From positions 144 through 64,143 of the forward strand of contig JAGVWU010000001.1 in NCBI GenBank assembly GCA_018304145.1: a stretch of 64,000 nt of DNA. Direction: 5' to 3'. This document shows positions 37,885 to 61,471 of this stretch, piece by piece; the first letter of the stretch is position 1; the number at the start of each line of letters is the position of its first letter. This DNA comes from Candidatus Pacearchaeota archaeon. GTDB taxonomy: Archaea; Nanobdellota; Nanobdellia; Pacearchaeales; GW2011-AR1. Below the pieces are notes generated by a model. It had not been told where the DNA came from and did no database searches. It saw nothing but the letters and a program-made list of their open reading frames with translations. Both the position numbers and the translations under genes were made by a program.

Positions 37885-37928
37885 GTTGTGGACTTAATCC
37901 TTAGGATTAACTTATCGTGGGGGCGTTT
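37885..37928. repeat. TTGTGGAC + palindrome TTAATCCTTAGGATTAA (copy B) + TCGTGGGGGCGTTT (left copy of 14-bp direct repeat)
   Basis: Palindrome at 37894-37910 and 14-mer at 37915-37928, both read directly. Lies immediately upstream of the integrase gene. Confidence 0.6.
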
Positions 37929-37990
37929 GAGATTTGTTTGACACTCCTAACTAAGGCGGTTTTTAATAACAAAACCTCCTTATTTAAGGA

Positions 37991-39175
37991 ATGGAAGACA
38001 TACATAATTATAAACGAAGACTTGAAAGAACTCTCGAAAGGGTAAATAAACTTGATCTCTATCCAGAAGATAAGGAATTAATTTATAGATTCAAAGATCT
38101 TTGTATCTGTCAAAATATAAGTTATGGAAAATTAGATGCTTATCTATTCTATACAATAAAACTTACAAATTTCCTTCAAAAACCAATAAAGGAAGCCAAT
38201 AAAGAGGACATAATGAATGTTATAGCAAAACTTAATGAAACAAATTATAGTGAGCAAACCAAAAAATGTTTTAAAGTTTTACTTAAAAAATTATACAAAT
38301 ATATTAGAGGTATAGAAGGTAAAGGAGAATATCCTGAAGAGGTAAAATGGATGTCAACTACAATTTCTAGAAATCATCAAAAACTGCCTGATGAACTTAT
38401 TAATGAAAACGAAATAGAAAGTATTATTAGGGCTGCTCAAAATACGAGAGATAAAGCTTTAATTTCTATTCTTGCAGAATCAGGTTGCAGAGTTTCTGAA
38501 ATAGGTCTCATGAAAATAAAAAATGTTTCATTTGAAGAATATGGGACAAGAATAGCAGTTTCAGGAAAAACGGGATCAAGAAAAATATTAGTGATAAATA
38601 GTACACCTTATTTACAAGAGTGGATTAATCAACATCCATTAAATAACAATTCTGATTCTTTTCTATGGTACAATCCATTAAATAGCAAATATCTAAGTTA
38701 TACCCGAATTACCAGTATTCTAAAAACCGCAGCAAAAAGAGCAGGAATAAAGAAGAGAATTCATCCTCATTTGTTAAGGCATAGCAGAGCAACGAAAATG
38801 GCTACGGTAATGAGTGAAGCTTCCATGAAGCAATATTTTGGATGGACTCAGGGATCTTCAATGGCAGGAGTTTATGTTCATTTATCTGGAAAAGATACTG
38901 ATGATGCCATACTCAAAGCAAATGGAATTGAAATAACAAAAAAAGAAATGATTATAACAAAAATGAAACCTATTATTTGCAATAGATGTAAAACATCAAA
39001 CGAAGCAACAAATAGATTCTGTAAAATATGCGGTCTTCCTTTAACAAAGGAGATTGCAGAAGAAACAATAAAAGAAGATTCTGAAAAGAAAAAGTTTGAG
39101 GATATATTAGAAATTGCTTTATCGGATAAAAAAGTATTAGAAATGATTAAAGAGAAGATGAAAGTAATTTTATAG
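37991..39175 (+). CDS. tyrosine recombinase / integrase (XerC/D-phage integrase family) with C-terminal Zn ribbon
   Basis: Box I ESGCRVSEI (catalytic Arg), box II HPHLLRHSRATKMA (H-x-x-R-H) and catalytic Tyr in GVYVHL. C-terminal CNRCK...CKICG ribbon. Confidence 0.8.
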   Translation: MEDIHNYKRRLERTLERVNKLDLYPEDKELIYRFKDLCICQNISYGKLDAYLFYTIKLTNFLQKPIKEANKEDIMNVIAKLNETNYSEQTKKCFKVLLKKLYKYIRGIEGKGEYPEEVKWMSTTISRNHQKLPDELINENEIESIIRAAQNTRDKALISILAESGCRVSEIGLMKIKNVSFEEYGTRIAVSGKTGSRKILVINSTPYLQEWINQHPLNNNSDSFLWYNPLNSKYLSYTRITSILKTAAKRAGIKKRIHPHLLRHSRATKMATVMSEASMKQYFGWTQGSSMAGVYVHLSGKDTDDAILKANGIEITKKEMIITKMKPIICNRCKTSNEATNRFCKICGLPLTKEIAEETIKEDSEKKKFEDILEIALSDKKVLEMIKEKMKVIL

Positions 39176-40517
39176 GATTAAAATTTCCAAATTTTTCAAA
39201 AAATTCAGAAATAATCTTCTTAGCCTGATTATCTGTAAATTTTGATCTTGGGAAAAGCCCTGCCAAATCACCCCGATAATCTATTTCTAAAACAATTGGA
39301 TCTTCACATAATTTTGTGGTATCTCTTATTTTTATAAAATAAATATCAGTTATCTGCTTTTCTCTTTCCATTTTTGACCTTTCGATTATGCGCTTTATTT
39401 CGGGTCTTCTAAAAGAACCTCTTTGACCAAAGAGAATATTTCGGCTAATAATTTCTCTAATCTCCTCGCCTTTAACTGTTATAGGTTTGTAAATTAAAGG
39501 ATCATGATCAAAAACGCATATATCCCTGAGAAATTTTTTTGCTATAATTTTCATTTTCCCTCTAAAATCTATTCTATGAATTAACGTGGGATTTATTTCT
39601 CCAAATAGAATTTTGGCTAGTCTTTTTATCTGTCTTTCTTCTGTTGAAAATATAGTTATTGGAATATAATTTTTTCCTGATTTTTGTTCTGCCCATATTT
39701 CTATTTTATTAAAAGGTGGATAAATAATTTTATAAGGAAATCCTTTAAAGTTTAGTTTTATCACATTATTTTCTTTTTTTGGAATATAGTTAAGAATTAA
39801 TTTATTTTCTTCTTTTGTTATTTCTTCCATGTTATCTCTTATATATGGAAAATTTTTAATATTACTTAAAATGTGATCTAAAGAAGTATTTATAATTCTA
39901 AATTGAGATGCACAAACTATTAAGGGAAATGGAGCCTTTCTAACAATTGCTTTAAATTCAGCTTTATCACCAACTTGATTTAATATATCTTTTTTTAATG
40001 ATTTCATTTGATCAAGCATTTTTTTAAATCCCTGATTTTGTTGATCAGTTAATAAATCAATTTTTTGGTTTGTACTAACACATAATTCAGTAATTTTAGA
40101 TTGATATTCTTCCTCTATTTTAGCCCAGAGATGAGGATTAAGCCTTATTTTTTCTTTAAAAATATGATAAAACTCTGAGACTATTTTTTTTACATCTAAG
40201 TCCTTTTCTGTGGTGGTCTTTATATTTTCTCCAACAAGAGTTATACGAGTTAATTTATCAACACGAGGAATTTTAGAGTCCAAAACTAAATCTTTAACAG
40301 TTGGATTTTTTAGAAATCTTTTTATAAAATTCTTTGATTTAGGATATTTTTTAATCAATTCATTTAGAGTTTCCTCATAAATTTTTTCAAAGTTAGGTCT
40401 TAAAGCTTTATCAATTTTATTCTTAAAGAAATCATAAGCTACATTGGTTATAATTCCCAGAGCAGGATCTGTCAATCCCACAATTGCTAATTGGGCTGTT
40501 TTCTTAATGTCAACCAT
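39147..40517 (-). CDS. hypothetical protein
   Basis: 456-aa ORF, convergent with the integrase and overlapping its 3' end by about 29 nt. No motif recognised. Confidence 0.4.
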   Translation of the reverse strand: MVDIKKTAQLAIVGLTDPALGIITNVAYDFFKNKIDKALRPNFEKIYEETLNELIKKYPKSKNFIKRFLKNPTVKDLVLDSKIPRVDKLTRITLVGENIKTTTEKDLDVKKIVSEFYHIFKEKIRLNPHLWAKIEEEYQSKITELCVSTNQKIDLLTDQQNQGFKKMLDQMKSLKKDILNQVGDKAEFKAIVRKAPFPLIVCASQFRIINTSLDHILSNIKNFPYIRDNMEEITKEENKLILNYIPKKENNVIKLNFKGFPYKIIYPPFNKIEIWAEQKSGKNYIPITIFSTEERQIKRLAKILFGEINPTLIHRIDFRGKMKIIAKKFLRDICVFDHDPLIYKPITVKGEEIREIISRNILFGQRGSFRRPEIKRIIERSKMEREKQITDIYFIKIRDTTKLCEDPIVLEIDYRGDLAGLFPRSKFTDNQAKKIISEFFEKFGNFNPIKLLSSSL

Positions 40518-40579
40518 AATTTTTAAGGATAATCAAGTTTTTAGAATTTTCTAAATCAAAATTAATTAAAATTTTTTAA

Positions 40580-40849
40580 TCAATTTTCTTTATCCTCATA
40601 TATATACATCAAGAAAGGAATTCCTTCTTTTTCTCTTTTTATTTTTCTAATCCTTTTATCTAGTTCATCAAAATCTCGTGGATATTCTATTCGATAAGAA
40701 AATTTTGATCTTTTTTCTTTTAATTTTTGAAATTCGTTTATTAGATCCATTTTAAATCTAAGTACATTCCAAGCGCCTATACTTTCAGTATATGCCATTT
40801 TACCTTCAATCTCTATAATATTTTTTGGAGTTATAGCTTTCTTTTCCAT
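40580..40849 (-). CDS. small hypothetical protein
   Basis: 89-aa ORF with mixed composition. No motif recognised. Confidence 0.3.
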   Translation of the reverse strand: MEKKAITPKNIIEIEGKMAYTESIGAWNVLRFKMDLINEFQKLKEKRSKFSYRIEYPRDFDELDKRIRKIKREKEGIPFLMYIYEDKEN

Positions 40850-41047: not shown

Positions 41048-41773
41048 ATGTCAAATCAAATAGAAACTTTAGATGCAAAACTACTAGGATTGAACAATTA
41101 CGAATTATCAGCTTATAAGTCATTGATAAAACTTGGTAAGAGCTCTGCGCCAGAGATAAGTAAAATTAGTACTGTTCCATATGGAAGAATTTACGATGTA
41201 TTGTATTCGCTTGAAGCTAAGGGGTATATTAAAACGATAACTGGTAAAACAAAATATTTCATTGCATCAGGTCCTAAAGAAATAATAAAACTAATTCAAG
41301 ATAAAAAGAAAGAGTTAGAGAATCTTGAAACAGAATTCGAAAAACTTGAACAAATATATGATACTAAAGAAGATGAACCAGTAATTATTGTTAAGGGTAA
41401 TAGAAATTTTCATAGAATTATCAAAGAAAAGCCTGAAGCAAAAAAATATCGTTATACAATAAAATATAATTCTGTAATAAATCCTGAATGGATTAAAGGT
41501 TATAAGAGTAAGTTAAGGAAAAAAATTGATATCAAGAATCTAGTAAGATATGATGAAAAAACAAAGAAAAATGTAATGAAATGGAAAAATGTTCTCCCTG
41601 AAATTAAAGCAATTGAAAATGAGGGAGTTGTGATGTCTTTAATTGACGATCATTATGTTATGATTGGATTGATTACTTCTAATTGTACTATTGTAATAAA
41701 AAATGAAGCACTTTGCAAGATTCTGAAAAAAATGTATCTTGCAACTTACGAAAAAGCAGAGGTGATAAAGTAA
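41048..41773 (+). CDS. TrmB-like winged-helix transcriptional regulator
   Basis: YELSAYKSLIKLGKSSAPEISKISTVPYGRIYDVLYSLEAKGYI is a TrmB-type HTH. First gene of a tightly coupled five-gene plus-strand operon. Confidence 0.6.
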   Translation: MSNQIETLDAKLLGLNNYELSAYKSLIKLGKSSAPEISKISTVPYGRIYDVLYSLEAKGYIKTITGKTKYFIASGPKEIIKLIQDKKKELENLETEFEKLEQIYDTKEDEPVIIVKGNRNFHRIIKEKPEAKKYRYTIKYNSVINPEWIKGYKSKLRKKIDIKNLVRYDEKTKKNVMKWKNVLPEIKAIENEGVVMSLIDDHYVMIGLITSNCTIVIKNEALCKILKKMYLATYEKAEVIK

Positions 41774-41774: not shown

Positions 41775-42947
41775 ATGCAACAAAAACTTAAACAAAAACA
41801 ATCGAATCAAAATATTTCATGGAATAAATTAAGTTCAATTTCAAAAGTTTATCTTTTAGATATCTATAGAGATATTTTAGCAAATGAACAAATAAAAAAA
41901 TGCCAACTTTTGAATAATAGAGATGTTTATTTTAAAGATTCTAATATGACTTTACAAGGAACTTCTGTTTCAGGACTAAGCTCTCCGGCTATTTTAGATA
42001 GACCAATAATTTTTGATAAAAATAATTCTATCAAACAGAATCTTGATAAATTTACTTCAATTTTAGCAGAATGTTATTTAAAAAATATGAAAAATGATTT
42101 GAAAGTTTTCAAAAAAGCATTTCCTGATGATATTGAGCAATTCAGGAAAATTGGTACTTATTGGGTTGGACATATAAGTGCTAAAATGTTAGGATTAATT
42201 TTCAAGTTAGATATCGATATGGATAAACTTGATCCAAACAAATACAGAATCAATGTTCCATTTTATCAACTGATGAACAATTCTAAATATAGCAAATTAA
42301 AGAAACTATACTTAGAAAAAACTAATAATCATTCAATTAAATTTATATCAAAAAAAAGTTTTATTTTATCTGATTCAACAGGAGCAAGAGGAATTGTTAA
42401 TGACGTTAATTCAAAAGAAAGAAGTAGAATAAGAATTCTTGTTCCATCAAATGTTAATAATATTCTTTCAATAATTTCTAAATTAACTGTTAAGAAAATT
42501 AATTTATTAAAAAGCAAATATAAAGAAACTGAAAATTTAAATCTTAAATCATTGGCTTTAATCTGTAGTGATACAGATTCTCCAGAAGGAATTTATAGAG
42601 AATTGGAATGGCGTCCAATTGAGGGTTATCCCTTAACTCCTGGCTGTTTTATTCTAGGTTCAACAGGATCTTTGGATTTATATTGTTTACAAGCAAAATA
42701 TATTTACAGATTATCATTAGCTGCTCAAGAAGAAATGAAAAATAGTATAACCAGTAACATTAAAGGAAAATATACGCCTGTAGTTTGGTTCGGAGCATTA
42801 AGTCTTCACGCATTAACTGAGCATAAAATAGTTGACACTGAAAAATTATCAGAACTAAGATATGATGGAGATTATGATCCTAAAAAAGAGTTTTTACATT
42901 GGATAAATAGAGAAGGTAAAGAGTATCTTAAAGGAGATTTAAAATGA
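41775..42947 (+). CDS. hypothetical protein
   Basis: 390-aa ORF that starts 2 nt after the regulator stop, with an ATGA overlap onto the next gene. No motif recognised. Confidence 0.45.
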   Translation: MQQKLKQKQSNQNISWNKLSSISKVYLLDIYRDILANEQIKKCQLLNNRDVYFKDSNMTLQGTSVSGLSSPAILDRPIIFDKNNSIKQNLDKFTSILAECYLKNMKNDLKVFKKAFPDDIEQFRKIGTYWVGHISAKMLGLIFKLDIDMDKLDPNKYRINVPFYQLMNNSKYSKLKKLYLEKTNNHSIKFISKKSFILSDSTGARGIVNDVNSKERSRIRILVPSNVNNILSIISKLTVKKINLLKSKYKETENLNLKSLALICSDTDSPEGIYRELEWRPIEGYPLTPGCFILGSTGSLDLYCLQAKYIYRLSLAAQEEMKNSITSNIKGKYTPVVWFGALSLHALTEHKIVDTEKLSELRYDGDYDPKKEFLHWINREGKEYLKGDLK

Positions 42948-43780
42948 GAATATTAGTAATAGGTGATCTACATGGAGAATTTCCTGAGAGTGTTCGAGAA
43001 GTAATAAAAAAGGAAAAAATAGATTTAATCCTTTCAACAGGTGACTTTGCTAATTTTGATAACTATAGAAAAATAAAATTTGATAAAATAGATAAAACAA
43101 ACTTTGCTAAAAACAAAGTCAAAGATCATATTCAAAATGATGAATATCAAAAGATGATTAATGAAATTATAAAATCTATGGAAAAACCCTTAGAAGTTTT
43201 AGATTCTTTTAATATTCCTGTTTATTCAATTTATGGAAATCTTGATTATACAAACTATGAAGTTAACAAACATAAAATAAAATCTAATAGTTTAAACAGA
43301 ATTATTAAGAAATCAAAAAATATTAAATTATTCCGAGAAGGATTTGTTGATTTTGATGATTTACAAATATTATTATTTTCAGGATATAGAAAAAATTATT
43401 TAAAATATGCTCCAAAGAAAACAAAGAAAGTTGATAGATTAAATAAGGGTTGGAAAGACAGACTTTCAAAAATATTTTCACAAATCAAACCAAATAAACC
43501 AGTTTTATTTTTATTCCATGATCCTCCAAAAGATACTAAATTAGATTTGATAAATAATCCAAATAGCCCAATGAATGGAAAGCATGTTGGAGACGAGATT
43601 ATAAGAGAATTTATAGAAAAATATCAACCTCAAGTTGCTATTTGTGGACATATGCACGAAACACAAGGAACTGACCAGATAAAAAAATCTCTAGTTATAA
43701 ATGCAGGTTATGGAAGAGTCGGACAATTTTTAATTTTGGATATTAATGGTGATGAAATTAAATATGATTTGAGGAAATAA
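42944..43780 (+). CDS. calcineurin-like metallophosphoesterase
   Basis: MRILVIGDLHGEF (motif I), GDF (motif II) and GHMHE (motif V). Confidence 0.75.
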   Translation: MRILVIGDLHGEFPESVREVIKKEKIDLILSTGDFANFDNYRKIKFDKIDKTNFAKNKVKDHIQNDEYQKMINEIIKSMEKPLEVLDSFNIPVYSIYGNLDYTNYEVNKHKIKSNSLNRIIKKSKNIKLFREGFVDFDDLQILLFSGYRKNYLKYAPKKTKKVDRLNKGWKDRLSKIFSQIKPNKPVLFLFHDPPKDTKLDLINNPNSPMNGKHVGDEIIREFIEKYQPQVAICGHMHETQGTDQIKKSLVINAGYGRVGQFLILDINGDEIKYDLRK

Positions 43781-43781: not shown

Positions 43782-44321
43782 ATGACAAAAACAAATTTAG
43801 TTTTATTGACAGGGCTTCCAGCAGCAGGAAAAAGTACAGTTGCACAGAGATTAGTTAGGGAAAATGGTTTTGCTATTTTATCCACAGATGATTTAAGACA
43901 ATCATTATTTCAGCAAACTTATGAAGAATTAGCAAAAGATGGAAAAAGAAAAGATGAAGTAGTAAGAAAGATTATTGATTATTCTAAATTACAGATTTTA
44001 GCAGCAGGTTGTGATTTGGTTATTGACTCAACTGCCCCTACAGAAAAATTCAGAAGGAGAATGTTAGAGCTACCAAAAGATCTTGAACAAACCATTAAGA
44101 AAACTATTTTATATGTAAGTGCTGGAGAATTTGTTAGAAATTCAAGACATATTTCTAGAGGAGGTTCTGGGGTTGCTTTGGAAACTATTCAAGGATTTTG
44201 GAAAGAGCCTCGAGATGGATTTTGTGGTGCTAGTTTATATTCTATTTATAATAATAGCGACAGTGATATAGGAAAATTGTATAGAGATGTTACAGATTTT
44301 TATGAGTGGTTGAAGGGATAA
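43782..44321 (+). CDS. P-loop kinase (AAA_33 / zeta-toxin / polynucleotide-kinase-like)
   Basis: Walker A LLTGLPAAGKSTVAQRL at the N-terminus and Walker B-like DLVIDST. 179 aa. Starts 2 nt after the phosphoesterase gene. Confidence 0.65.
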   Translation: MTKTNLVLLTGLPAAGKSTVAQRLVRENGFAILSTDDLRQSLFQQTYEELAKDGKRKDEVVRKIIDYSKLQILAAGCDLVIDSTAPTEKFRRRMLELPKDLEQTIKKTILYVSAGEFVRNSRHISRGGSGVALETIQGFWKEPRDGFCGASLYSIYNNSDSDIGKLYRDVTDFYEWLKG

Positions 44322-44372: not shown

Positions 44373-45446
44373 ATGCCATCGGAATCTATTGAACATCTAG
44401 AATTGAAGCGAAAAGCGAGAGAAATCTTAACTAATAAATATGGATTTAAAGATAATGAAATAACTGAAGAATATCCTCATATTTTGTCTAATGGTGTAAG
44501 AATTGAAATTGACGTTTTCGCAAAGAATAGTAATGGATTAAAAGCGATTGAATGTGGAAGTGTTAGTAAGTTAAAATTAATTACTATGAAAAATGAATTC
44601 GGAAAAGAAAATGTTATTCATATTCCATACTCTGAAGCGGTGTTAAAATCATTATTTTATGGAGATAAAGATTTATCTTCAAAAAAACAATTACTAAAAG
44701 CAGTTTTTAATGAAGAAATTTATGAAAAATTAAAGGAAGATAAAGACTATGGGTTTCTAGAATATAATGATAAAAATAAGGATTATTTTTATATTGGAAG
44801 ATTTGAATCTTGGATGGCTTTTCCAACAAATAGAAGTATTATTGATGGCAGAAAATTAATGTATGAAATTAACTTTACTATTTCTTATATTGATAAAGAA
44901 ACCTATGAAATAACTATAAATGCTGAAACAAATGATTCTGTAAGTCAATATATTGAATTAACTGATAATACTAAAGACAAAATATTTGATGAATTAAAAA
45001 AATTACCTTCAAATTTTTTTACTCAAGATGGAATAAAATTCAAAACTGAAAAGAGAAGACTTCCACCTTTACCGAGAAATTGGGAGGTTACAGAACCTAC
45101 CCCCTGCAATCAACTAACAAAGGAAAAATTAATAGAAATAGAGAATAGATTAAAGTGGTATTTAAGCGAAGGTGGAAAATTTGAAGAATATCCAATACTT
45201 TCATTGGTAAGAATAAATGTTAGAAAAAAAGATTTAGCAAAAACCTTACTTATATTAAAGCCCATTTATTTACTATCATTTAAGTTTAAAACAAAAAAAG
45301 AAGAAAAAGCCGTTCATGATAGTTTGGAATCATTAAAACAGAGAAGGAATGCAATATTAAGTGGATTTATTCCAGAAGCAACACAAGAAGAATATGAAGA
45401 CCTTGAAGTTCAAATAGCAAAGATGCAAAAAGAATTAGATGAATAG
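44373..45446 (+). CDS. hypothetical protein (N-terminal region possibly restriction-endonuclease-like)
   Basis: 357-aa ORF. The N-terminal ~80 aa contain RIEIDVFAK ... AIECGS, which weakly resembles a PD-(D/E)xK core. Not secure. Confidence 0.4.
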   Translation: MPSESIEHLELKRKAREILTNKYGFKDNEITEEYPHILSNGVRIEIDVFAKNSNGLKAIECGSVSKLKLITMKNEFGKENVIHIPYSEAVLKSLFYGDKDLSSKKQLLKAVFNEEIYEKLKEDKDYGFLEYNDKNKDYFYIGRFESWMAFPTNRSIIDGRKLMYEINFTISYIDKETYEITINAETNDSVSQYIELTDNTKDKIFDELKKLPSNFFTQDGIKFKTEKRRLPPLPRNWEVTEPTPCNQLTKEKLIEIENRLKWYLSEGGKFEEYPILSLVRINVRKKDLAKTLLILKPIYLLSFKFKTKKEEKAVHDSLESLKQRRNAILSGFIPEATQEEYEDLEVQIAKMQKELDE

Positions 45447-54973: not shown

Positions 54974-55110
54974 ACCCAAACACCTATTATTATTACTATA
55001 ATAGGTTCTATTTAAAGTTATTTTAGACCATTTAGCCACCTAGTGCAAAGCTTTGCTTCTTATGGCGGCTTTTTTATATTTTTTGTTAATTTTATATTAT
55101 ATAAAATGGA

Positions 55111-55139: not shown

Positions 55140-58127
55140 TTAGCTATTTAAAAATAGTTTTTCAATTTTATTTTGAATATATCTATTATCAGTTGTTTCT
55201 GCTAAGTTTGAATAGGAAGGACCTATTTTTTTATTAGTCATAACAAAAAACCAATTTTTTCCATAAAGTTTATTATTATTCTTTACTTTTTCCATTAATG
55301 CTTTTCTGTTTGTTTCTAAAGTTTTCCCAGTTTCAACTTCTATTGCATATTTTTGACCTTTTACTTCAAATATAATGTCTGGTTTTATAGTTTCATACAT
55401 TTTTACTTTGTCAGTAAATTTTTTAATGAAGTAATATAGCTGATAACACATAAAAGCATGAGGAAGGCTTTCATTAGATCTTGGAAAAACCATATATCTT
55501 TGTAATTTTTTTGTTTTAAAACTTTTTGCTTCAAATTGTTTATAACCTTTTGATTCAAGATAAATTATATCTTCTGTAGATAGTTTGCTCATTCTAAAAA
55601 TACCTCTTTCTTCGTTTAGAGTTATATTAATTTCTTTTTGCTCTTGTTTTATTGGTTTTTGTTCAATTGGTTTTTTATTATTTTTTAAAAGTATTTCATC
55701 TGCATTAGTAGTTATTATTTCATGCTCTTTTTCAGAAGCTACTATTTTTATTTTAGAGTGATCATCTTCCATTATAAGAAGCCCTTCTCCAACCATTGCT
55801 GTTAATAATAAAACTCTTTCAGAACCGCTTAAATGAAATATTTTTTGTATACTTTCTATTACAGCAGGTTTTTGTCTTAATAATAATGTGTAAGAACTGT
55901 TTGCTAAAACAGATCTTCCAGCCTTGGAGTTTAACATATCTTCTACTTCTTGATTGATTAAGAATAGCCCCATATTAAATTTTCTACAGGTTTTAACTAT
56001 TTCAAATAAGTAAGAAGAATCTTGAGATCTTGAAAGTAAAGCCCATGCTTCATCAATAACTAATATTTTTCTTTTAAGATCTCTTTTCATTTTTGTGTAA
56101 ACATAATCTAGAACAAGAAACATCATAGTTGGTTTAATTTGTCTAGGTAATTTTCCAATATCAAAACAAATAAAATCATTATCAAAATTAATGTTTGTAT
56201 GTTGATCAAGAAAAGAAAAAACTCCTTTAACATAAATATTCATCCTATTAATTAAACTTCTTATAGATATTTTTTCAAGACTTGTAGCTCTTTTTTCCAT
56301 TATTATCAATCGCTTTAATACATCTTGCATTCTTGGAGGGGCATATTCCCAAGTTCGAGGATTATTCATAATAATTCCTTTTTTCTCATAAGCGTCTGTT
56401 AATGCTTTGTCAAGAAATGTTTTTTGAGGCTCTGATAAATCACCTAACATTATGGGCATTAATTCCATTAATGCAAGACGCTTTTCAGGATAAGTATGAC
56501 CCATTAAATCTAATGGATTTATTATTGTATCAGAATCTCTTGCTAAATCTATTCTTTGACCTTGAAACTTTTCAACAAGACCTGCATACTCTCCCTGAGG
56601 GTCAATTATGATTACTTTTGTTCCGCTTAATAAATGTCTTGAAATTAATAATTTTGCAAGATAACTTTTTCCTGATCCAGAAGAAGCCAAACAGACTCCA
56701 TTTGCATTGGATAATTTGAATATATCTCTTATAATTGGAATATTACTTTTTCCAAGACCAAGCCAAATACCTGTAGGGTCAAATTTAAAGAACTGAGTTG
56801 TAAATGGAAAAAATGCAGATAGTGCAGAAGTAGGAATATTTCTTTTAACATTAAGAGAATTATCAATGAATGGGAGACAAGATTTGTATCCTTGAACCAT
56901 TCTAAACAATGGTTGTCTTGGAATTATTAACATTGAGTTTAATTCTGATTCAACTGTTTTTGTTAAGAGGTCAAGTTCTTTTTTACTGGGGGCTTGACAA
57001 TTGATAAATAAACTTACATTAAATAGTCGTTCTTCTCCTTTTTGTAGATTTTCAAGAATTCCTAAAGTGTCTCTATATTTAATTTCAAGACTAGGATTTA
57101 ATTGATTCTTTATTTTTGCTGAATATAAATCTGCTCTTTGTTTTTGTAGTTCTTTATTTAAGTTTACCATTGTTGTTTCAATGTTACTCGTTTCTATTTG
57201 TATTGAAATGTTAAAATTTCCAGAAAAACTGATTAGTCTATCTAAAAATCCAGTTTCAACTTTTCTTGGGTAACCATGAGCATAAATTGTACGATAAAAT
57301 TTTCCATCAATTTCTAAGTGATCAATATTATTCTTTATTTCTCTTGGAAGAATAGAAATATTATTTCCGGCATAAAATATTTGCCTAAATAAACTATCAA
57401 AATCATTTTTGTTCAATCTTTTTGTTTTAAGATGTAAACTGTTTAATCTTTCTTCACAAATCTTAACTTGATTTTCAATATTAGTTGTTTCCTGGATAAC
57501 TACATAAAAATTTCTATTCAAAACTTTATTTTTTGAAATCAACTCTACTAAATGAGTTTTATATTCTTCATAAATTGCCATATTTTCTTCTGATTGATTA
57601 ATATTTTCTTTTAGATTATCAAGATAACTTTCTAAAGAAAGTTCTTCAGTGGTTATTAAAATCTGAAGTGGAAAATCAAGTGAATTAAGAAATTTTTGAA
57701 ATGATAATGTTATTGCCTCTTGCTCATTTGTTGGTTTTATCTGAAAATTTAATGATTCAACTTTTAATACTGCTAATTTTTTCTTGTTAGAATAAATTAC
57801 TTCTTTTTCTATATTATCCAGTCTAATAAGATTTTGAATATCTTTTTGCTTATTTATATGCCTAAATCTATACCAGCTTATCCAATTTTTCAGATGTTCT
57901 AAAAAATTAAAGAAAATAAAACCTATTCCTATCAAAGCAGGTATTAAAGCTAAAAATATTCTTATATATAAGTTAAAATGAAAACTAAAAATAATAAAAA
58001 GTGATATTGGAAAAAATAAAAAAGCCCATACTAATTGCTTAAAATCAAGCCCAAAAACAATTATTTCCTTATATTCAAGTTGTTGAGGTATTTCATACAT
58101 ATTATATTGCTCCAATAGTTTTTGCAA
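55140..58127 (-). CDS. VirB4/TrbE-family conjugation ATPase with C-terminal restriction-endonuclease-like (PD-(D/E)xK) domain
   Basis: N-terminal TM helices. Walker A LASSGSGKSYLAKLL and Walker B ILVIDEAWALL in the C-terminal half, as in VirB4. A final ~130-aa domain carries KPDIIFEVKGQKYAIEVETG (hhhD...ExK / IEVE), resembling Hjc/NERD/Mrr-type nuclease cores. Confidence 0.6.
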   Translation of the reverse strand: MQKLLEQYNMYEIPQQLEYKEIIVFGLDFKQLVWAFLFFPISLFIIFSFHFNLYIRIFLALIPALIGIGFIFFNFLEHLKNWISWYRFRHINKQKDIQNLIRLDNIEKEVIYSNKKKLAVLKVESLNFQIKPTNEQEAITLSFQKFLNSLDFPLQILITTEELSLESYLDNLKENINQSEENMAIYEEYKTHLVELISKNKVLNRNFYVVIQETTNIENQVKICEERLNSLHLKTKRLNKNDFDSLFRQIFYAGNNISILPREIKNNIDHLEIDGKFYRTIYAHGYPRKVETGFLDRLISFSGNFNISIQIETSNIETTMVNLNKELQKQRADLYSAKIKNQLNPSLEIKYRDTLGILENLQKGEERLFNVSLFINCQAPSKKELDLLTKTVESELNSMLIIPRQPLFRMVQGYKSCLPFIDNSLNVKRNIPTSALSAFFPFTTQFFKFDPTGIWLGLGKSNIPIIRDIFKLSNANGVCLASSGSGKSYLAKLLISRHLLSGTKVIIIDPQGEYAGLVEKFQGQRIDLARDSDTIINPLDLMGHTYPEKRLALMELMPIMLGDLSEPQKTFLDKALTDAYEKKGIIMNNPRTWEYAPPRMQDVLKRLIIMEKRATSLEKISIRSLINRMNIYVKGVFSFLDQHTNINFDNDFICFDIGKLPRQIKPTMMFLVLDYVYTKMKRDLKRKILVIDEAWALLSRSQDSSYLFEIVKTCRKFNMGLFLINQEVEDMLNSKAGRSVLANSSYTLLLRQKPAVIESIQKIFHLSGSERVLLLTAMVGEGLLIMEDDHSKIKIVASEKEHEIITTNADEILLKNNKKPIEQKPIKQEQKEINITLNEERGIFRMSKLSTEDIIYLESKGYKQFEAKSFKTKKLQRYMVFPRSNESLPHAFMCYQLYYFIKKFTDKVKMYETIKPDIIFEVKGQKYAIEVETGKTLETNRKALMEKVKNNNKLYGKNWFFVMTNKKIGPSYSNLAETTDNRYIQNKIEKLFLNS

Positions 58128-58932
58128 CGATTGCGGTTTTTGCGATAGGTCCCATGACTTTAGAAGCCGCTTTAATCAATACAAAAAGCAAAAGGACAAA
58201 AGTAGAGATTATCACAAGATCAAAAGATCCTATAACAATTAAAATTTTTATATCGCTTAAAGAATTAAGTAGTAATAATCTTGAAGCAGTTAAGAATATC
58301 AAAGAGTAAAAAAATGGTAGAAAGATTAAAACCATTAATCCATTTATTATAAGTTTGCCGTAATTATGCAGAGGACTAATAAAATAAAAGAATATACCTA
58401 TTGCAAAAAATATAACTCCTGAACTAACAGCAATATATCTAATCATAAGAATCAATGATGTAATAATCAAATGAATAATGTATAAACCTAAAAATATTAT
58501 TTCTAAAGCTAGATTGGAAAAACTTTCAGATGTATAATTAAAAAAATCATTTCCAGCTATATTCAATACTCCTTTTGTTAATCCTGATGAGATCAAAAGA
58601 ATTAATTCATAAATATAATAACTGGTCTGAACCAGAACTATCATTATTAAAGTATTTTTTAAAGAGGTTTTTGCTTTTTCTCTTTCTTCTGGACTTTCTC
58701 CAGATATAATAAATTTGAATCCTATCCAAATTAGCAGTAAACCATAAAATAAAGATAAAACATAAATAATAACTCCCCAGACATCTGCAAATATTGAAAT
58801 ATTTACAGGTTCTGATAAGAGTTTATAATTAAGATTCAGGAAGGGTTGTAGAGCCATGTTGATTAAATCTACGATAAAACCAAACAAGTACTCTATAACA
58901 CAACCTCCCGGATCTGTAATGCTGCAACTCAT
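58102..58932 (-). CDS. polytopic membrane protein (VirB6/TrbL-like candidate) with TrbC-like N-terminal motif
   Basis: Seven or more predicted TM helices. N-terminal IISGESPEEREKAKTSLKNTLIMIVLV is paralogous to the adjacent 123-aa protein. Confidence 0.4.
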   Translation of the reverse strand: MSCSITDPGGCVIEYLFGFIVDLINMALQPFLNLNYKLLSEPVNISIFADVWGVIIYVLSLFYGLLLIWIGFKFIISGESPEEREKAKTSLKNTLIMIVLVQTSYYIYELILLISSGLTKGVLNIAGNDFFNYTSESFSNLALEIIFLGLYIIHLIITSLILMIRYIAVSSGVIFFAIGIFFYFISPLHNYGKLIINGLMVLIFLPFFYSLIFLTASRLLLLNSLSDIKILIVIGSFDLVIISTFVLLLFVLIKAASKVMGPIAKTAIVAKTIGAI

Positions 58933-58933: not shown

Positions 58934-59263
58934 TTAATTTCCTAAAATCAGCTTAACCACAAAAGGAGCTGCCCAGATAACCATCAGACCTATGATAACA
59001 TACATTACCATATTTTTTGCTTTCTCTCTTTTTCCTGGATCTGATCCACTCATTATATAAGTGATTCCAGCAAACAACAATACTAGACCTGCAATCATTG
59101 TGACTGCATATTTTACAAGGTCGTAAATTGTTTGTAATGGTTTTAGTATTTGGTCAAAATCGCTATTTGATGCAGCTAAAATAAAACTAATCTGAAACAA
59201 AAGCAATACAAATAAAAAACAATAAATCAACAATGCTTTGTTTTTTGGTTTTCCTTGTGCCAT
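58934..59263 (-). CDS. VirB2/TrbC-like pilin-like small membrane protein
   Basis: About 110 aa with an N-terminal signal/TM segment, a mature region and a second hydrophobic helix (MSGSDPGKREKAKNMVMYVIIGLMVIWAAP). This topology matches TrbC/VirB2 pilins. Confidence 0.4.
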   Translation of the reverse strand: MAQGKPKNKALLIYCFLFVLLLFQISFILAASNSDFDQILKPLQTIYDLVKYAVTMIAGLVLLFAGITYIMSGSDPGKREKAKNMVMYVIIGLMVIWAAPFVVKLILGN

Positions 59264-59463
59264 TTTATTACCTCCTGAAATTTTTTCTTTTCTTTGTACT
59301 TGCAACTTAAAACATTAAAGCAAGTCTTGCAAAAGTCTGCTTCATCTGTTCTAAGTTCCTTTCCGCATAAGATGCATTTTTTCATGAAAACTTTATTTTT
59401 GAGAACTTTATATAATACCGAGTGAAACTTTTTGTACAAAATTTTGTACAAAAAATTGTACAA
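59227..59463 (-). CDS. small Zn-ribbon protein (tentative)
   Basis: CILCGKEL...CKTCF four-Cys ribbon in a 78-aa ORF. Overlaps the start of the downstream gene. Confidence 0.25.
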   Translation of the reverse strand: MYNFLYKILYKKFHSVLYKVLKNKVFMKKCILCGKELRTDEADFCKTCFNVLSCKYKEKKKFQEVIKWHKENQKTKHC

Positions 59464-59633: not shown

Positions 59634-60671
59634 ATGATTCCAATAAATAAAATCTATAATTGTGAGGTATTAGAAGGATTAAAAAAATTACCTGATAACT
59701 CAATTGATTGCATAGTCACAAGTCCTCCCTATTGGAATCTTAGAGATTATAGAGTTGATAGTCAAATTGGTTTAGAAAATCATCCTGACGAATATATTAG
59801 AAAAATTATTGATATTATGAAAGAATTTAGAAGAGTTCTAAAACCAACTGGGACAATTTGGTTAAATCTTGGTGATTCATATTATAAAAATAAAGGAAGA
59901 GATTGTAAATCTAATTGGCTTCAGCATAAACAGAAACTCCTTATTCCTTTTAGAGTTGCTATTAAATGCCAAGATGATTTAGGTTTGATTCTTAGAAACG
60001 ATATAACCTGGATTAAACAATGGTGCAATTTTAAAACAAAAGATTCAGCCGGAAGTGTTACACCCACATCTGTAAAAGACAGATTAAATACTCATTCTGA
60101 ATCAATTTTCTTTTTTGTTAAAGATAAAAAATATTATTTTAATATTGATAAAATAAAAATTCCATGCAGAGATTTAAAAATTAAAACTGGAAAAAATCCT
60201 GGTGATTCAATTATTTTTCCTTTAGAACCAAGTAGAGAGAAACATTATGCAATGTTTCCAAAAACACTGCCTGAATTTTGCATTAAAGCTGGTTGCCCTG
60301 AAATGGTCTGTAAAAAATGTGGAACTCCCTTATTAAAAATAAAAGTTGGAGGAAATATTAATTCATTTAATTTTAGAGTGAGGGACGTTAAAAAAGGTAG
60401 AATCAAAAGTTTGGATAGAAGAGCTTCTTCAAAAGAGACTAAAAAATATAATGAAAAGAGTTATATGCCTAAATCTAAAGAAAAAATCATCCTGGCTTGT
60501 TCCTGCAATTCTGGGTTTAAACCAGGGATTGTTTTAGATCCTTTCATGGGTTCTGGAACAACTGCATTAGTTGCTAAAAGACTAAACAGAAATTTTATTG
60601 GTTTTGAATTAAACAAAGATTATCTTAAAATTATTGAGAAAAGACTATCTCAGGAGTTTTCTAATGAATAA
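59634..60671 (+). CDS. beta-class DNA methyltransferase (N4-cytosine or N6-adenine), orphan
   Basis: Motif IV IVTSPPYW precedes motif I DPFMGSGTT, the beta-class order. An internal CKKCGTPLL insertion is present. No obvious cognate restriction enzyme adjacent. Confidence 0.8.
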   Translation: MIPINKIYNCEVLEGLKKLPDNSIDCIVTSPPYWNLRDYRVDSQIGLENHPDEYIRKIIDIMKEFRRVLKPTGTIWLNLGDSYYKNKGRDCKSNWLQHKQKLLIPFRVAIKCQDDLGLILRNDITWIKQWCNFKTKDSAGSVTPTSVKDRLNTHSESIFFFVKDKKYYFNIDKIKIPCRDLKIKTGKNPGDSIIFPLEPSREKHYAMFPKTLPEFCIKAGCPEMVCKKCGTPLLKIKVGGNINSFNFRVRDVKKGRIKSLDRRASSKETKKYNEKSYMPKSKEKIILACSCNSGFKPGIVLDPFMGSGTTALVAKRLNRNFIGFELNKDYLKIIEKRLSQEFSNE

Positions 60672-60918
60672 TCAAAGTGAGAAACCTAGATTGGGTTTAT
60701 ACAACTTACTATTTAGAAGATTAGATGAATTACAAAGACAAAGTAAAAAAGAAATAATTCCGTTTCCAATGGTGTTTGTAAAATTATGCAGTAATTTTTC
60801 TATAAAGAAAAATGAATGTTGGGAATTATTATTTTTAATAAGAGATATGGGAATTATTGAGATTATTCCGCATCATGGGATAAGGTTGAAAGAAGAAATT
60901 AATTTTAAAATTGGGTAA
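60664..60918 (+). CDS. small hypothetical protein
   Basis: About 84-aa ORF overlapping the MTase stop. No motif recognised. Confidence 0.25.
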   Translation: MNNQSEKPRLGLYNLLFRRLDELQRQSKKEIIPFPMVFVKLCSNFSIKKNECWELLFLIRDMGIIEIIPHHGIRLKEEINFKIG

Positions 60919-60996
60919 TTTATAAGATTACAGTTTATTAGAATGAATTCTTAAAGATTAGCAAAGTTTATTTACGAATATCATTTAATATATTAT

Positions 60997-61347
60997 ATGG
61001 TATGTAAAAATATTAAAGAATTTGAACAAAGATGGGAGGACATAAGTAAAAAGATAGAAAAAAGTAGTTTAACCAGAAAGCAAGCTGGTGGAATAGTTAA
61101 AAATTTCTTTGAAGAAATTAAAATATTTAGTGTTAATAATCATCTTTATGGGAAAAAAGAAGAACCATTTGATTTCTTCTTTGCAATAACCGAAATTAGC
61201 ACTTCTCTATATGTTTCTTTACAAATAGCTATATCTAATTATGAAGAAAAACATGGAATTACATTATTTGCAAAAATTTTTGGAAATAGAGAATTTAAAA
61301 TAGATATAAACGCAATAAAAAATGAAATTAATAATAAATTCGTTTAA
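60997..61347 (+). CDS. hypothetical protein
   Basis: 116-aa ORF, last gene before the right-hand direct repeat. Confidence 0.3.
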   Translation: MVCKNIKEFEQRWEDISKKIEKSSLTRKQAGGIVKNFFEEIKIFSVNNHLYGKKEEPFDFFFAITEISTSLYVSLQIAISNYEEKHGITLFAKIFGNREFKIDINAIKNEINNKFV

Positions 61348-61457
61348 ATTCAATAGTCCACCACTATTCTCTAAAATAGGGGTCTTTAAATACTAATTTG
61401 TCCTCGGTAAATTAATTATAATAAACACTTTGGGGTGTTAAACAAATCACTTGAACC

Positions 61458-61471
61458 TCGTGGGGGCGTTT
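61458..61471. repeat. right copy of 14-bp direct repeat TCGTGGGGGCGTTT (putative attR)
   Basis: Exact match to 37915-37928. Embedded in AT-rich non-coding DNA. Confidence 0.6.

What the first reader, a model, noticed from the sequence alone, without database searches (positions are those of the whole stretch)
37885..61471. About 23.6 kb integrated plasmid-like / conjugative element bounded by a 14-bp GC-rich direct repeat, inserted right after the exosome superoperon
The exact 14-mer TCGTGGGGGCGTTT occurs only at 37915-37928 and 61458-61471. A chance match of that length and GC content is very unlikely in a 64 kb, roughly 70 percent AT sequence. A tyrosine integrase with all catalytic boxes sits 60 bp inside the left repeat. 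The interval carries a VirB4/TrbE-like ATPase, VirB2/TrbC-like and VirB6-like membrane proteins, a complete Type I R-M system, an orphan MTase, a TrmB regulator and several nuclease-like proteins. Taken together this is a mobile element, not core chromosome. Integrative conjugative elements are poorly described in DPANN-like archaea.
Basis: partly seen in the sequence, partly recalled or inferred. Interest (0 to 1): 0.8.

Follow-up and report, generated by a model that had tools for sequence, protein, structure and literature searches.

The report
Integrated mobile element in tiny archaeon
A 23.6 kb stretch of a Pacearchaeota (DPANN) genome is an integrated mobile element, bounded by a 14-base repeat next to its integrase, that carries a stripped-down conjugation-type pilus and ATPase module shared by hundreds of related elements in these ultra-small archaea.

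Summary
TCGTGGGGGCGTTT occurs exactly twice (37915-37928, 61458-61471) and is the least probable repeated 14-mer in the window. An intact tyrosine integrase starts 62 nt inside the left copy.

Independent support for att sites:
- 19-nt inverted arms lie just inside both copies.
- A 95%-identical integrase in another genome (L166) has the same 14-mer at the same position, and its left flank is unrelated.
- In 63%-identical relatives a tRNA-Ser 3' end sits where the 14-mer sits here.

The pilin, polytopic membrane protein and VirB4 cluster is conserved in 80 of 80 related metagenome loci. An integrase lies upstream in about half of those with enough flank, often beside a tRNA. One relative (L108) is bounded by a 12-nt tRNA-Asp repeat.

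So this is one member of a widespread family of DPANN integrative elements. Three things are not shown:
- Conjugation: there is no coupling protein, relaxase or replication gene.
- An empty site or a circular junction.
- A tRNA target in this window.

"VirB6-like" rests on position only. VirB4 carries a conserved C-terminal PD-(D/E)XK nuclease-like domain. ChaN lies between rpoK and attL, and synteny with the closest relative already ends at 36890.

The parts
37915..37928 (+). attL core, the left copy of the 14-bp direct repeat TCGTGGGGGCGTTT
   Evidence: An identical core sits at the same distance from the 95%-identical integrase in L166. It aligns with the 3' end of tRNA-Ser in L168 and L124.
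37929..37947 (+). Inner arm at attL, GAGATTTGTTTGACACTCC. Inverted partner of 61432-61450. Candidate integrase-binding site.
   Evidence: 16 of 19 complementary; 2 of 3000 random window pairs score as high. The motif ATTTGTTTRACACYCC with 0-1 mismatch occurs only at attL, attR and L166 attL; the other hits carry 2 mismatches and look like chance coding matches.
37991..39175 (+). Tyrosine integrase (394 aa) with a C-terminal CxxC...CxxC zinc ribbon. The gene is intact after integration (pNOB8-like mode).
   Evidence: Pfam Phage_integrase 9e-24. NCBIfam XerA-like at 123 bits, below the 220-bit cut-off. R167, K193, H260, R263, W285, Y295 and four Cys are invariant in 27 homologs. More than 1290 homologs.
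39147..40517 (-). Unknown 456-aa protein. Absent from the related element L166.
   Evidence: No family in Pfam, PADLOC, PHROGs or NCBIfam. L166 comparison.
40580..40849 (-). Conserved 89-aa protein ('u89') that accompanies the integrase/att end of these elements. Candidate excision or regulatory factor (inferred).
   Evidence: Adjacent to the integrase in L166, L168 and L169. Present in 16-18 of 80 VirB4 loci, typically as the distal gene.
41048..41773 (+). TrmB-family transcription regulator
   Evidence: Pfam TrmB 6e-17. Syntenic in L166.
41775..42947 (+). Unknown 390-aa protein. Conserved with L166.
   Evidence: No family hit. 84% nucleotide identity with L166.
42944..43780 (+). Calcineurin-like metallophosphoesterase
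   Evidence: Pfam Metallophos 1.6e-19. PADLOC candidate PDC-S10 6.5e-13.
43782..44321 (+). AAA_33 P-loop kinase-like protein
   Evidence: Pfam AAA_33 6e-16. PADLOC VakA 5e-5.
44373..46020 (.). Two unknown genes: 44373-45446 (+) and 45451-46020 (-)
   Evidence: No family hits.
45990..46661 (-). Cas4-like PD-(D/E)XK nuclease with a Cys cluster
   Evidence: Pfam PDDEXK_1 7e-15 and Cas_Cas4 1.6e-5. PADLOC Cas4 1e-9. Homologs in 6 other VirB4 loci.
46663..48829 (-). Two unknown genes: a 369-aa protein, and a 351-aa protein matching AF_0896_M / phrog_24372
48930..55039 (-). Complete Type I restriction-modification system: HsdR 48930-51923, HsdS 51916-53250, HsdM 53252-55039 (probable start 54973)
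   Evidence: Pfam HSDR_N, ResIII and SWI2_SNF2; Methylase_S x2; HsdM_N plus N6_Mtase 5.5e-61. R-M genes also lie directly downstream of VirB4 in several relatives.
55140..58100 (-). VirB3(PrgI-like TM)-VirB4 ATPase fused to a C-terminal wHTH plus PD-(D/E)XK nuclease-like domain. 986 aa from the conserved MYEIPQQ start; the longest ORF runs to 58127.
58102..58932 (-). Polytopic (about 7-helix) membrane protein in the VirB6 position, with an N-terminal pilin-like domain
   Evidence: Pfam T4SS_pilin 2.9e-7 only. 20 of 46 homologs hit T4SS_pilin and none hit TrbL/VirB6. hhalign against CD1112 VirB6-like gives probability 0.1. AF2 from a single sequence gives pLDDT 62. Present in 73 of 80 loci.
58934..59305 (-). 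VirB2/TrbC-type T4SS pilin (probable start 59263, 109 aa)
   Evidence: Pfam T4SS_pilin 2.6e-15 and TrbC 1.1e-10, both above the cut-offs. Present in 62-68 of 80 loci.
59634..60671 (+). N4/N6 DNA methyltransferase with no partner endonuclease, divergent from the pilin gene
   Evidence: Pfam N6_N4_Mtase 1.1e-46. PADLOC MTase_II 6e-74. A DNA MTase lies within 5 kb upstream of VirB4 in 26 of 41 loci with enough flank.
60664..61347 (+). Two small genes: u94 (60664-60918) and u116 (60997-61347)
   Evidence: No families. u94 homologs lie between the integrase and the pilin gene in L112, L115, L124 and L138, and upstream of the pilin gene in L109 and L118, where no integrase is within the locus.
61432..61450 (+). 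Inner arm at attR, GGGGTGTTAAACAAATCAC. Inverted partner of 37929-37947.
61458..61471 (+). attR core, the right copy of the 14-bp direct repeat

Best explanation
Window 37915-61471 is an integrated mobile genetic element in a Candidatus Pacearchaeota (DPANN) chromosome. It belongs to a large family of DPANN integrative elements.

Integration. A pNOB8-style tyrosine integrase recombined a short core on a circular element (attP) with a matching chromosomal sequence. That left the 14-bp core as a direct repeat at both ends (attL and attR). The integrase gene stayed intact 62 nt inside attL, and inverted 19-nt arms, probably integrase-binding sites, lie just inside each core. Related integrases use the 3' end of tRNA genes. 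Here the target appears to be a decayed tRNA-like remnant, not a live tRNA.

Family hallmark module. It comprises a VirB2/TrbC pilin, a pilin-domain polytopic membrane protein, and a VirB3-VirB4 ATPase of the monoderm (MPF-FATA-like) type. An orphan DNA methyltransferase is read divergently from it.

Inferred, not shown. After excision, this minimal type IV apparatus builds a pilus or channel that moves the element's DNA between cells. The nuclease-like domain fused to VirB4 is the candidate DNA-processing activity, standing in for the missing relaxase. The methyltransferase protects the DNA from restriction on entry. The Type I R-M system, the Cas4-like nuclease and the phosphoesterase/kinase genes are cargo or defence.

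Confidence by step: integrated element with these ends, about 0.8; self-transfer by conjugation, about 0.4.
For: - Repeat. It is exact, unique and the least probable 14-mer repeat in the window. It is absent from about 2.1 Mb of related loci except next to the 95%-identical integrase of L166/L167.
- Arms. 16 of 19 inverted; empirical p about 7e-4. The motif recurs only at the att sites and at L166 attL.
- Left boundary. L166 comes from another aquifer and is 92.6% identical at nucleotide level over the integrase gene. It is homologous from window 37893 rightwards and unrelated to the left.
- tRNA equivalence. In L168/L169 (integrase 63% identical) a tRNA-Ser ends 61 nt before the integrase ATG. 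Here the core ends 62 nt before it. L124 has tRNA-Ser and L112 has tRNA-Asp followed by decayed att remnants.
- Integrase. All catalytic residues are invariant.
- Family pattern. The pilin, membrane protein and VirB4 genes are conserved in 80 loci. An integrase lies within 10 kb upstream in 12 of 26 loci with enough flank, often directly beside a tRNA.
- Complete relative. L108 is a 16.4 kb element bounded by a 12-nt repeat of the tRNA-Asp 3' end, with inverted GGGTGT arms.
- Tandem copies. L133 and L144 are two elements in tandem.
- VirB4 identity. PDB 4AG5 1.9e-35; ICE-type NCBIfam models 1e-89 to 1e-93; the closest plasmid homologs are CD1110-family conjugation ATPases.
- Nuclease-like fold of the C-terminal domain.
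- Composition. GC is 27.6% inside against 29.7% outside.
Against: - No empty site or circular junction was found. The attB 22-mer gave 0 hits in JGI metagenomes and attP gave 0 in viral contigs.
- The integrase and both flank genes occur in nearly equal numbers of assemblies (43, 41 and 40 index blocks), always in the occupied state. The element may therefore be fixed or immobile.
- The right boundary rests only on the repeat, the arm and the family pattern. Only 2.7 kb of right flank exists before every assembly ends.
- Neither end has a tRNA.
- No VirD4/TraG coupling ATPase, relaxase or replication initiator was detected. Every characterised conjugative system, including Sulfolobus plasmids and thaumarchaeal ICEs (PMC6563490), has a VirD4-type partner.
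- VirB6 homology is not detectable.
- The compositional difference is small.
Confidence: 0.72

Rival explanations
1. A domesticated or fixed island. The region entered as an integrative element but is now a stable part of the chromosome. On this reading the pilin/VirB4 module does not move the element. It works for the cell, either as a Ced/Ted-like DNA-import system or, as proposed for Patescibacteria and nanohaloarchaea, as a contact or secretion device towards a host cell.
For: - All assemblies are in the occupied state and no attB was found.
- The gene set (pilin, polytopic protein and VirB4 only, with no coupling protein or relaxase) equals the minimal Ced/Ted composition and the Patescibacteria T4SS composition (PMC9905601, PMC12102498).
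- VirB4 homologs are very common in Pacearchaeota and Nanoarchaeota MAGs: more than 690 full-length homologs, and 468 stretches in JGI metagenomes.
- VirB4-like ATPases are already proposed as host-interaction devices in nanohaloarchaea (PMC10266531).
Against: - The module is repeatedly found directly inside integrase/tRNA-bounded units, in tandem copies, and next to orphan methyltransferases, R-M systems and group II introns. That is a mobile neighbourhood, not a conserved chromosomal one.
- The integrase and both att cores here are intact and identical.
- Sequence affinity is to ICE or plasmid VirB4 of monoderm bacteria. The CedD model scores only 31 bits against a 600-bit cut-off.
Confidence: 0.3
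2. A composite island. The variable region downstream of rpoK starts at about 36.89 kb and includes ChaN. It was built by successive insertions at one hot spot. The 14-bp repeats delimit only the latest unit, which is itself a mosaic of three parts: an integrase/TrmB/phosphoesterase module, a defence block, and a pilin/VirB4/methyltransferase module.
For: - Synteny with the closest relative L022 stops at 36890.
- A degenerate core copy (36896-36909, 3 mismatches) and an exact 17-nt palindrome flank ChaN on both sides.
- The ChaN homologs lie in other contexts, one of them next to a tRNA.
- L166 shares only the left module (37.9-44.2 kb) and then diverges.
- The closest VirB4 loci share only the right module.
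- L112 shows arrays of decayed att remnants.
Against: - This is compatible with the main explanation rather than opposed to it.
- The degenerate core alone is not significant: 0.7 matches are expected at up to 3 mismatches.
- No internal third copy of the core splits the 23.6 kb interval.
Confidence: 0.35
3. The 14-mer pair is a coincidence or a regulatory motif, and the interval is ordinary chromosome that happens to hold an integrase and defence genes.
For: The window contains 195 repeated 14-mers. No empty site was found.
Against: - The other repeated 14-mers are AT-rich. This one is 9/14 GC in a 29% GC sequence, where 1e-5 occurrences are expected, and 0 of 100 shuffles reproduce it.
- It has inverted arms.
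- The core is conserved next to the orthologous integrase in L166 while its flanks diverge.
- It is positionally equivalent to tRNA 3' ends.
Confidence: 0.03

Closest known systems
Archaeal integrative-conjugative elements and conjugative plasmids (thaumarchaeal ICEs, PMC6563490; Sulfolobus pNOB8-type plasmids)
   Same: A tyrosine integrase whose gene stays intact. Short direct repeats at the ends, with tRNA-type targets in family members. VirB4-type ATPase, membrane proteins and pilins. No canonical relaxase. R-M and methyltransferase cargo.
   Different: Those elements carry a VirB4 plus VirD4/TraG ATPase pair, are much larger (median 64 kb), and encode replication or ParB/TFIIB modules. This one has no VirD4, no recognisable replication module, is 23.6 kb, and its VirB4 is fused to a nuclease-like domain.
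Ced and Ted DNA-import systems of Thermoproteota (PMC9905601)
   Same: A minimal set of VirB2-like pilin, polytopic membrane protein and VirB4-like ATPase, without coupling protein or relaxase.
   Different: Ced and Ted are chromosomal and damage-induced, and are not flanked by integrases. Here the module sits on integrase/att-bounded units. Sequence affinity is to bacterial monoderm conjugation ATPases, not to the Ced ATPases.
Patescibacteria (CPR) T4SS related to the MPF-FATA class (PMC12102498)
   Same: Ultra-small episymbiont lineage. VirB4 of monoderm type with PrgI/VirB3 and VirB2-like pilins, mostly without relaxase. Bacterial MAG loci L083 and L084 hold VirB4-like genes 39-41% identical.
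   Different: In CPR the genes are often near the origin and are thought to be co-opted for host interaction; that paper found no VirB3-VirB4 fusions. Here VirB3-like TM helices are fused to VirB4 in most family members, a nuclease-like domain is added, and the genes are linked to integrases.
Mycoplasma/Clostridial ICE VirB4 families (NCBIfam Mbov_0397, CD1110) and the Mbov_0395 pilin-like protein
   Same: These are the best-scoring curated models for the ATPase (312 and 300 bits) and for both small membrane proteins. The plasmid homologs are CD1110-family conjugation ATPases.
   Different: All scores are below the curated cut-offs. Identity is 23-31%. No plasmid homolog covers the C-terminal 180 residues. 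The C. botulinum plasmid pCDC3875 inspected here also encodes a VirD4-like coupling protein (CD1115 family) and is typed as carrying a MOBP relaxase.
Nanohaloarchaeal SPEARE-type giant proteins with a VirB4/TraG-like domain (PMC10266531)
   Same: A DPANN lineage with VirB4-family ATPases proposed to belong to a type IV-like apparatus.
   Different: Those are giant surface proteins with Ig-like repeats, proposed to act on the host. No pilin/integrase-bounded element is described for them.

Membership tests
Tyrosine-recombinase integrative element (pNOB8-type integration) | Tyrosine recombinase with the catalytic R-K-H-R-H/W-Y set | tested here: met
   Pfam Phage_integrase 9e-24 covering 3-169 of 172. 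R167, K193, H260, R263, W285 and Y295 are invariant in 27 homologs.
Tyrosine-recombinase integrative element (pNOB8-type integration) | Integrase gene intact in the integrated state, next to one end | tested here: met
   The 394-aa ORF is the same length as more than 100 homologs at 98-100% coverage. It starts 62 nt from attL.
Tyrosine-recombinase integrative element (pNOB8-type integration) | Direct repeats (att core) at both ends | tested here: met
   14-bp exact repeat with inverted inner arms.
Tyrosine-recombinase integrative element (pNOB8-type integration) | Integration into a tRNA gene | tested here: not met
   No tRNA in the window by ARAGORN, with or without introns, or by Rfam. Relatives L112, L124, L168 and L108 do use tRNA 3' ends. 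The core aligns with those ends.
Tyrosine-recombinase integrative element (pNOB8-type integration) | Empty site (attB) or excised circle (attP) observed | tested here: inconclusive
   attB scan of JGI metagenomes: 0. attP scan of viral contigs: 0. Relatives are not syntenic beyond rpoK. Raw reads could not be searched.
Conjugative element (ICE) with a type IV secretion system | VirB4-family ATPase | tested here: met
Conjugative element (ICE) with a type IV secretion system | Type IV coupling protein (VirD4/TraG/TcpA) | tested here: not met
   No second ATPase of this kind among the element ORFs of 85 aa or more, nor among the clusters conserved across the 80 related loci.
Conjugative element (ICE) with a type IV secretion system | Relaxase / oriT | tested here: not met
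   No relaxase family hit. Known archaeal conjugative plasmids and ICEs also lack canonical relaxases (PMC6563490, PMC9905601). oriT was not tested.
Conjugative element (ICE) with a type IV secretion system | VirB2/TrbC-type pilin | tested here: met
   PF18895 at 56.7 bits and PF04956 at 42 bits, both above the cut-offs.
Conjugative element (ICE) with a type IV secretion system | VirB6/TrbL-type polytopic channel protein | tested here: inconclusive
   Polytopic protein in the right position, but there is no TrbL/VirB6 hit in 46 homologs. hhalign against CD1112 gives probability 0.1. The model is low-confidence.
Conjugative element (ICE) with a type IV secretion system | VirB3/PrgI-like membrane segment | tested here: inconclusive
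   PrgI E 0.009 on residues 13-86 of VirB4. Many homologs carry a precomputed PF12666 hit. This part is a separate ORF in about 10 loci.
Conjugative element (ICE) with a type IV secretion system | Demonstrated cell-to-cell transfer | not testable with these tools
   Uncultivated organism.
Ced/Ted DNA-import system | Minimal pilin + polytopic protein + VirB4-like ATPase, chromosomal, not on a mobile element | tested here: not met
   The composition matches, but the module is integrase/att-bounded here and in relatives. CedD model: 30.8 bits against a 600-bit cut-off.
Type I restriction-modification system | HsdR, HsdM and HsdS (two target-recognition domains) in one operon | tested here: met
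PD-(D/E)XK nuclease superfamily (C-terminal domain of VirB4) | Restriction-endonuclease-like fold with conserved acidic residues | tested here: met

The most novel reading that the evidence does not exclude
DPANN archaea carry a large, undescribed family of tRNA-integrating elements that transfer DNA with a three-protein type IV apparatus, without a coupling ATPase or relaxase. On this reading the PD-(D/E)XK domain fused to VirB4 cuts or processes the DNA at the channel. That would be a relaxase-independent form of conjugation, and possibly a route for gene flow among ultra-small archaea or between them and their hosts.
Probability: 0.22. Interest if true: 0.8.

Novelty: new variant of a known kind. 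Interest (0 to 1): 0.6.

Why it matters
Mobile elements of DPANN archaea are almost undescribed. Six full-text searches of the paper library found no description of integrative or conjugative elements in Pacearchaeota, Woesearchaeota or Nanoarchaeota.

This window gives a cleanly bounded example of a family that occurs hundreds of times in groundwater and sediment metagenomes. The family links a conserved integrase/att system to a minimal conjugation-type machine.

If the machine moves DNA, it would explain how genome-reduced, host-dependent archaea exchange genes. It would also define the smallest known conjugation apparatus.

If instead it serves host contact, it parallels the essential T4SS of Patescibacteria and would point to convergent symbiont biology in the two ultra-small radiations.

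The att architecture (core plus arms) and the VirB4-nuclease fusion are directly testable in vitro.

Tried and rejected
- Empty site. A ChaN search of GTDB genomes found no relatives. The two ChaN homologs, at 81% and 75% identity, lie in unrelated contexts. 64 genome loci anchored on Rrp41 show the exosome operon conserved up to rpoK, but none carries ChaN, the integrase or the right-flank genes. The closest relative, L022, diverges at 36890 into a methyltransferase, uS2 and rRNA. An exact attB 22-mer scan of JGI metagenomes gave 0 hits.
- Circular junction. attP and core-plus-arm patterns in viral contigs gave 0 hits.
- Viral collection. No integrase or VirB4 relatives were found there.
- tRNA or ncRNA at the ends. 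ARAGORN and Rfam are negative for the window. ARAGORN without the intron option missed a real intron-containing tRNA in L018, so I repeated it with introns.
- Unknown ORFs (456, 390, 357, 189, 369, 116, 94 and 89 aa). There are no informative hits in Pfam, PADLOC, PHROGs or NCBIfam, so no Rep or relaxase candidate could be named.
- VirB6 homology. The single-sequence model was too poor to search. hhalign against a Clostridium VirB6-like protein was negative.
- Second att ends in relatives. Only L108 has both ends inside the fetched locus.
- L015 looked like a rearranged variant, but it is a chimeric contig.
- Composition. There is only a 2-point GC drop and a modest tetranucleotide shift, so this is weak evidence.

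Full report
**Observation**

The 14-mer TCGTGGGGGCGTTT occurs exactly twice in the window, at 37915-37928 and 61458-61471, both on the + strand. Nothing else appears at up to 2 mismatches, and no shuffle reproduces two copies. The window is 29% GC and holds 195 repeated 14-mers. Nearly all are AT-rich, and this one is the least probable (log10 p = -9.8; 1e-5 occurrences expected).

- a tyrosine integrase, 37991-39175
- a TrmB regulator
- a metallophosphoesterase
- an AAA_33 kinase-like protein
- a Cas4-like PD-(D/E)XK nuclease
- a complete Type I R-M system (HsdR, HsdS, HsdM)
- a VirB4-type ATPase
- a TrbC/VirB2 pilin
- an N4/N6 DNA methyltransferase

Upstream lie SBDS, Rrp4, Rrp41, Rrp42 and RpoK, then a ChaN-like gene on the minus strand (36989-37777). 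The element therefore does not directly abut rpoK. Public records name the organism Candidatus Pacearchaeota.

**Are the repeats att sites?**

Four independent lines say yes.

1. Inverted arms. Immediately inside each copy lies a 19-nt arm in inverted orientation: GAGATTTGTTTGACACTCC at 37929-37947 and GGGGTGTTAAACAAATCAC at 61432-61450. They are 16 of 19 complementary. Only 2 of 3000 random pairs of 40-nt windows from this sequence do as well. In 2.1 Mb of related DNA the arm motif recurs, at 0-1 mismatch, only at these two sites and at the L166 site; the remaining hits have 2 mismatches and look like chance matches in coding sequence. Joined head to tail, the ends give arm, 7 nt, core, arm, which is the layout of an attP.

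2. A relative with a different left flank. L166/L167 come from the Hainich aquifer. Their integrase is 95% identical at protein level and 92.6% at nucleotide level. The identical 14-mer sits at the same distance from the integrase gene. L166's homology to the window begins at 37893, and everything to the left is unrelated. The left edge of the mobile unit is therefore within about 20 nt of the core.

3. tRNA ends in the same position. In L168/L169 (integrase 63% identical) a tRNA-Ser(TGA) ends 61 nt before the integrase start codon. Here the core ends 62 nt before it. L124 has a tRNA-Ser and L112 a tRNA-Asp in the same place. In an alignment of seven integrase-upstream regions the only invariant block is GGCGT, the end of the tRNA acceptor stem, and it falls inside the window's core.

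4. A complete relative. L108 has a different integrase clade but the same pilin/VirB4 module. It is bounded by a 12-nt direct repeat of the tRNA-Asp 3' end, 16.4 kb apart, with inverted GGGTGT-containing arms.

The integrase itself has the full R-K-H-R-W-Y set and a C-terminal four-cysteine ribbon, all invariant in 27 homologs. It scores well below the XerA cut-off, so it is not the chromosome-dimer resolvase.

**What is missing at the ends**

Neither end has a tRNA. The sequence left of the core, in both the window and L166, aligns loosely with a T-arm. L112 shows three decayed att remnants between its tRNA and its integrase. I therefore infer that the target here is a tRNA-derived remnant. 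This is inference, not a demonstrated fact.

No empty site could be found.
- The ChaN homologs sit in other contexts.
- 64 related genomes keep the exosome operon up to rpoK but share nothing downstream of it.
- The closest relative, L022 (84-86% nucleotide identity), loses synteny at window 36890, before ChaN.
- An exact attB 22-mer is absent from JGI metagenomes.
- The integrase and both flank genes occur in similar numbers of assemblies (43, 41 and 40 index blocks), always in the occupied arrangement.

The right flank is only 2.7 kb long, because every assembly ends at about 64.13 kb, apparently at a repeated gene. The right boundary therefore rests on the repeat, its arm, and the family pattern that the att site lies 2-3.5 kb from the pilin gene on the u94 side.

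**The type IV module**

The ATPase.
- It matches the solved VirB4 of Thermoanaerobacter (4AG5, 1.9e-35).
- It matches NCBIfam models for Mycoplasma-ICE and Clostridial CD1110 VirB4 at 1e-89 to 1e-93, both below their cut-offs.
- Its best plasmid relatives are conjugation ATPases of monoderm bacteria at 23-31% identity.
- Its N-terminus carries PrgI/VirB3-like membrane helices. These form a separate ORF in about ten related loci.

The pilin. It passes the curated Pfam thresholds for T4SS_pilin and TrbC.

The gene between pilin and ATPase. It encodes a helical polytopic protein whose only detectable similarity is a pilin-like N-terminal domain. VirB6/TrbL homology was sought and not found. 'VirB6-like' is therefore positional.

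No VirD4-type coupling protein, relaxase or replication protein was detected in the element. None appears among the gene clusters conserved across 80 related loci either.

**The family**

VirB4 has more than 690 full-length homologs at 52-68% identity in Pacearchaeota, Nanoarchaeota and Woesearchaeota MAGs, and 468 stretches in JGI metagenomes. In the 80 best loci:
- The order pilin, optional secreted 455-aa or 131-aa protein, polytopic protein, VirB4 is conserved.
- A DNA methyltransferase lies upstream in 26 of 41 loci with enough flank.
- A tyrosine integrase lies within 10 kb upstream in 12 of 26 loci with enough flank, frequently directly beside a tRNA-Asp, tRNA-Ser or tRNA-Cys.
- R-M systems, Cas4-like nucleases, group II intron reverse transcriptases and Fic proteins fill the variable parts.
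- Two elements sit in tandem on a 965 kb contig (L133 and L144).
- The small protein u89 travels with the integrase/att end.

This is the signature of a mobile-element family, not of a conserved chromosomal operon.

**Mechanism**

Shown: an intact integrase, identical cores, inverted arms, a VirB4/pilin module, an orphan methyltransferase, and R-M cargo.

Inferred:
- Integrase-mediated excision to a 23.5 kb circle.
- Assembly of a VirB2-type pilus and channel by the VirB3-VirB4 ATPase and the polytopic protein.
- Transfer of the element's DNA, with the fused nuclease-like domain as the processing enzyme.
- Protection of the incoming DNA by the methyltransferase.

The missing coupling protein is the main argument against self-transfer. 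The same minimal gene set imports DNA in Ced/Ted (PMC9905601) and is thought to serve host interaction in Patescibacteria (PMC12102498). I put about 0.8 on 'integrated element with these ends' and about 0.4 on 'self-transmissible'.

**Comparison with what is known**

The closest described archaeal counterparts are thaumarchaeal ICEs and Sulfolobus conjugative plasmids. They share the integrase logic and the lack of relaxases, but they carry a VirB4/VirD4 pair and are far larger (PMC6563490).

Six full-text searches found no description of integrative or conjugative elements in Pacearchaeota, Woesearchaeota or Nanoarchaeota. The only DPANN VirB4 report concerns nanohaloarchaeal giant proteins (PMC10266531).

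**Verdict**

I rate this a new variant of a known kind. The 'mobile element' interpretation is supported. The 'conjugative', 'VirB6-like' and 'right after the exosome operon' details are not.

Noticed in passing
window 36893-36929 and 37884-37914 (flanking ChaN, 36989-37777): The ChaN-like gene is bracketed by an exact 17-nt palindrome, TTAATCCTTAGGATTAA, each copy preceded by TTGTGG. A degenerate copy of the att core (TTGTGGGGGGGTAT, 36896-36909) lies exactly where synteny with the closest relative L022 ends (36890). ChaN may itself be an older insertion at the same hot spot.
   Followed up: partly
L012 12341-12433 (about window 64.05-64.14 kb): All assemblies of this contig (64-72 kb, from many samples) stop at the same point, just inside an ORF starting MKLTKSKLTETLRKLNSGKTVYQARKIANVS. 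It is probably a repeated, IS-like gene that breaks assembly.
   Followed up: no
window 55140-55680 (C-terminal 160-180 residues of VirB4): A wHTH plus PD-(D/E)XK nuclease-like domain is fused to VirB4. It is conserved across the DPANN family and is not covered by any of the listed plasmid VirB4 homologs. It has 692 representatives in the 50%-identity protein library, always at the C-terminal end of the protein.
   Followed up: yes
L018 830-943 and 690-740: The 81% ChaN relative has an intron-containing tRNA that ARAGORN misses without the intron option. With introns it is called 'tRNA-Stop (tta)'. A second copy of the tRNA 5' end and a GGGGGGCGTT motif lie nearby.
   Followed up: no
L133 and L144 (contig Ga0208977_1000003, 216-261 kb): Two integrase/pilin/VirB4 elements lie in tandem on a 965 kb DPANN contig.
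   Followed up: partly
L112 1-400 (same sample as the window's source contig): A second, 55%-related element in the same metagenome has a tRNA-Asp followed by three decayed att-like remnants before its integrase. The contig ends there.
   Followed up: partly
L093, L100, L104, L110, L119, L130, L136, L146, L161 and others: Group II intron reverse-transcriptase genes sit next to VirB4 in about 12 of 80 related loci.
   Followed up: no
window 35233-35565: About 0.3 kb of extra DNA with a 109-110 aa ORF of unknown function lies between Rrp41 and Rrp42. It is absent from the closest relative L022, where the two genes are 48 nt apart.
   Followed up: no
L015 1-594: Contig Ga0103680_10011867 is chimeric. 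High-GC foreign coding DNA is joined to the truncated membrane-protein gene of the element.
   Followed up: yes
L083 19867-20682 and L084 19986-20669: Bacterial MAG loci fetched through an RNase PH match carry VirB4-like genes 39-41% identical to the window's ATPase over 236-280 residues. This hints at a link to bacterial (possibly CPR) T4SS.
   Followed up: no
window 42944-44321 and L166 5778-7994: The metallophosphoesterase plus AAA_33 kinase-like pair is conserved with L166, where a sigma70_r4-like gene is inserted between them. The pair gives weak hits to candidate defence models (PDC-S10, VakA).
   Followed up: no
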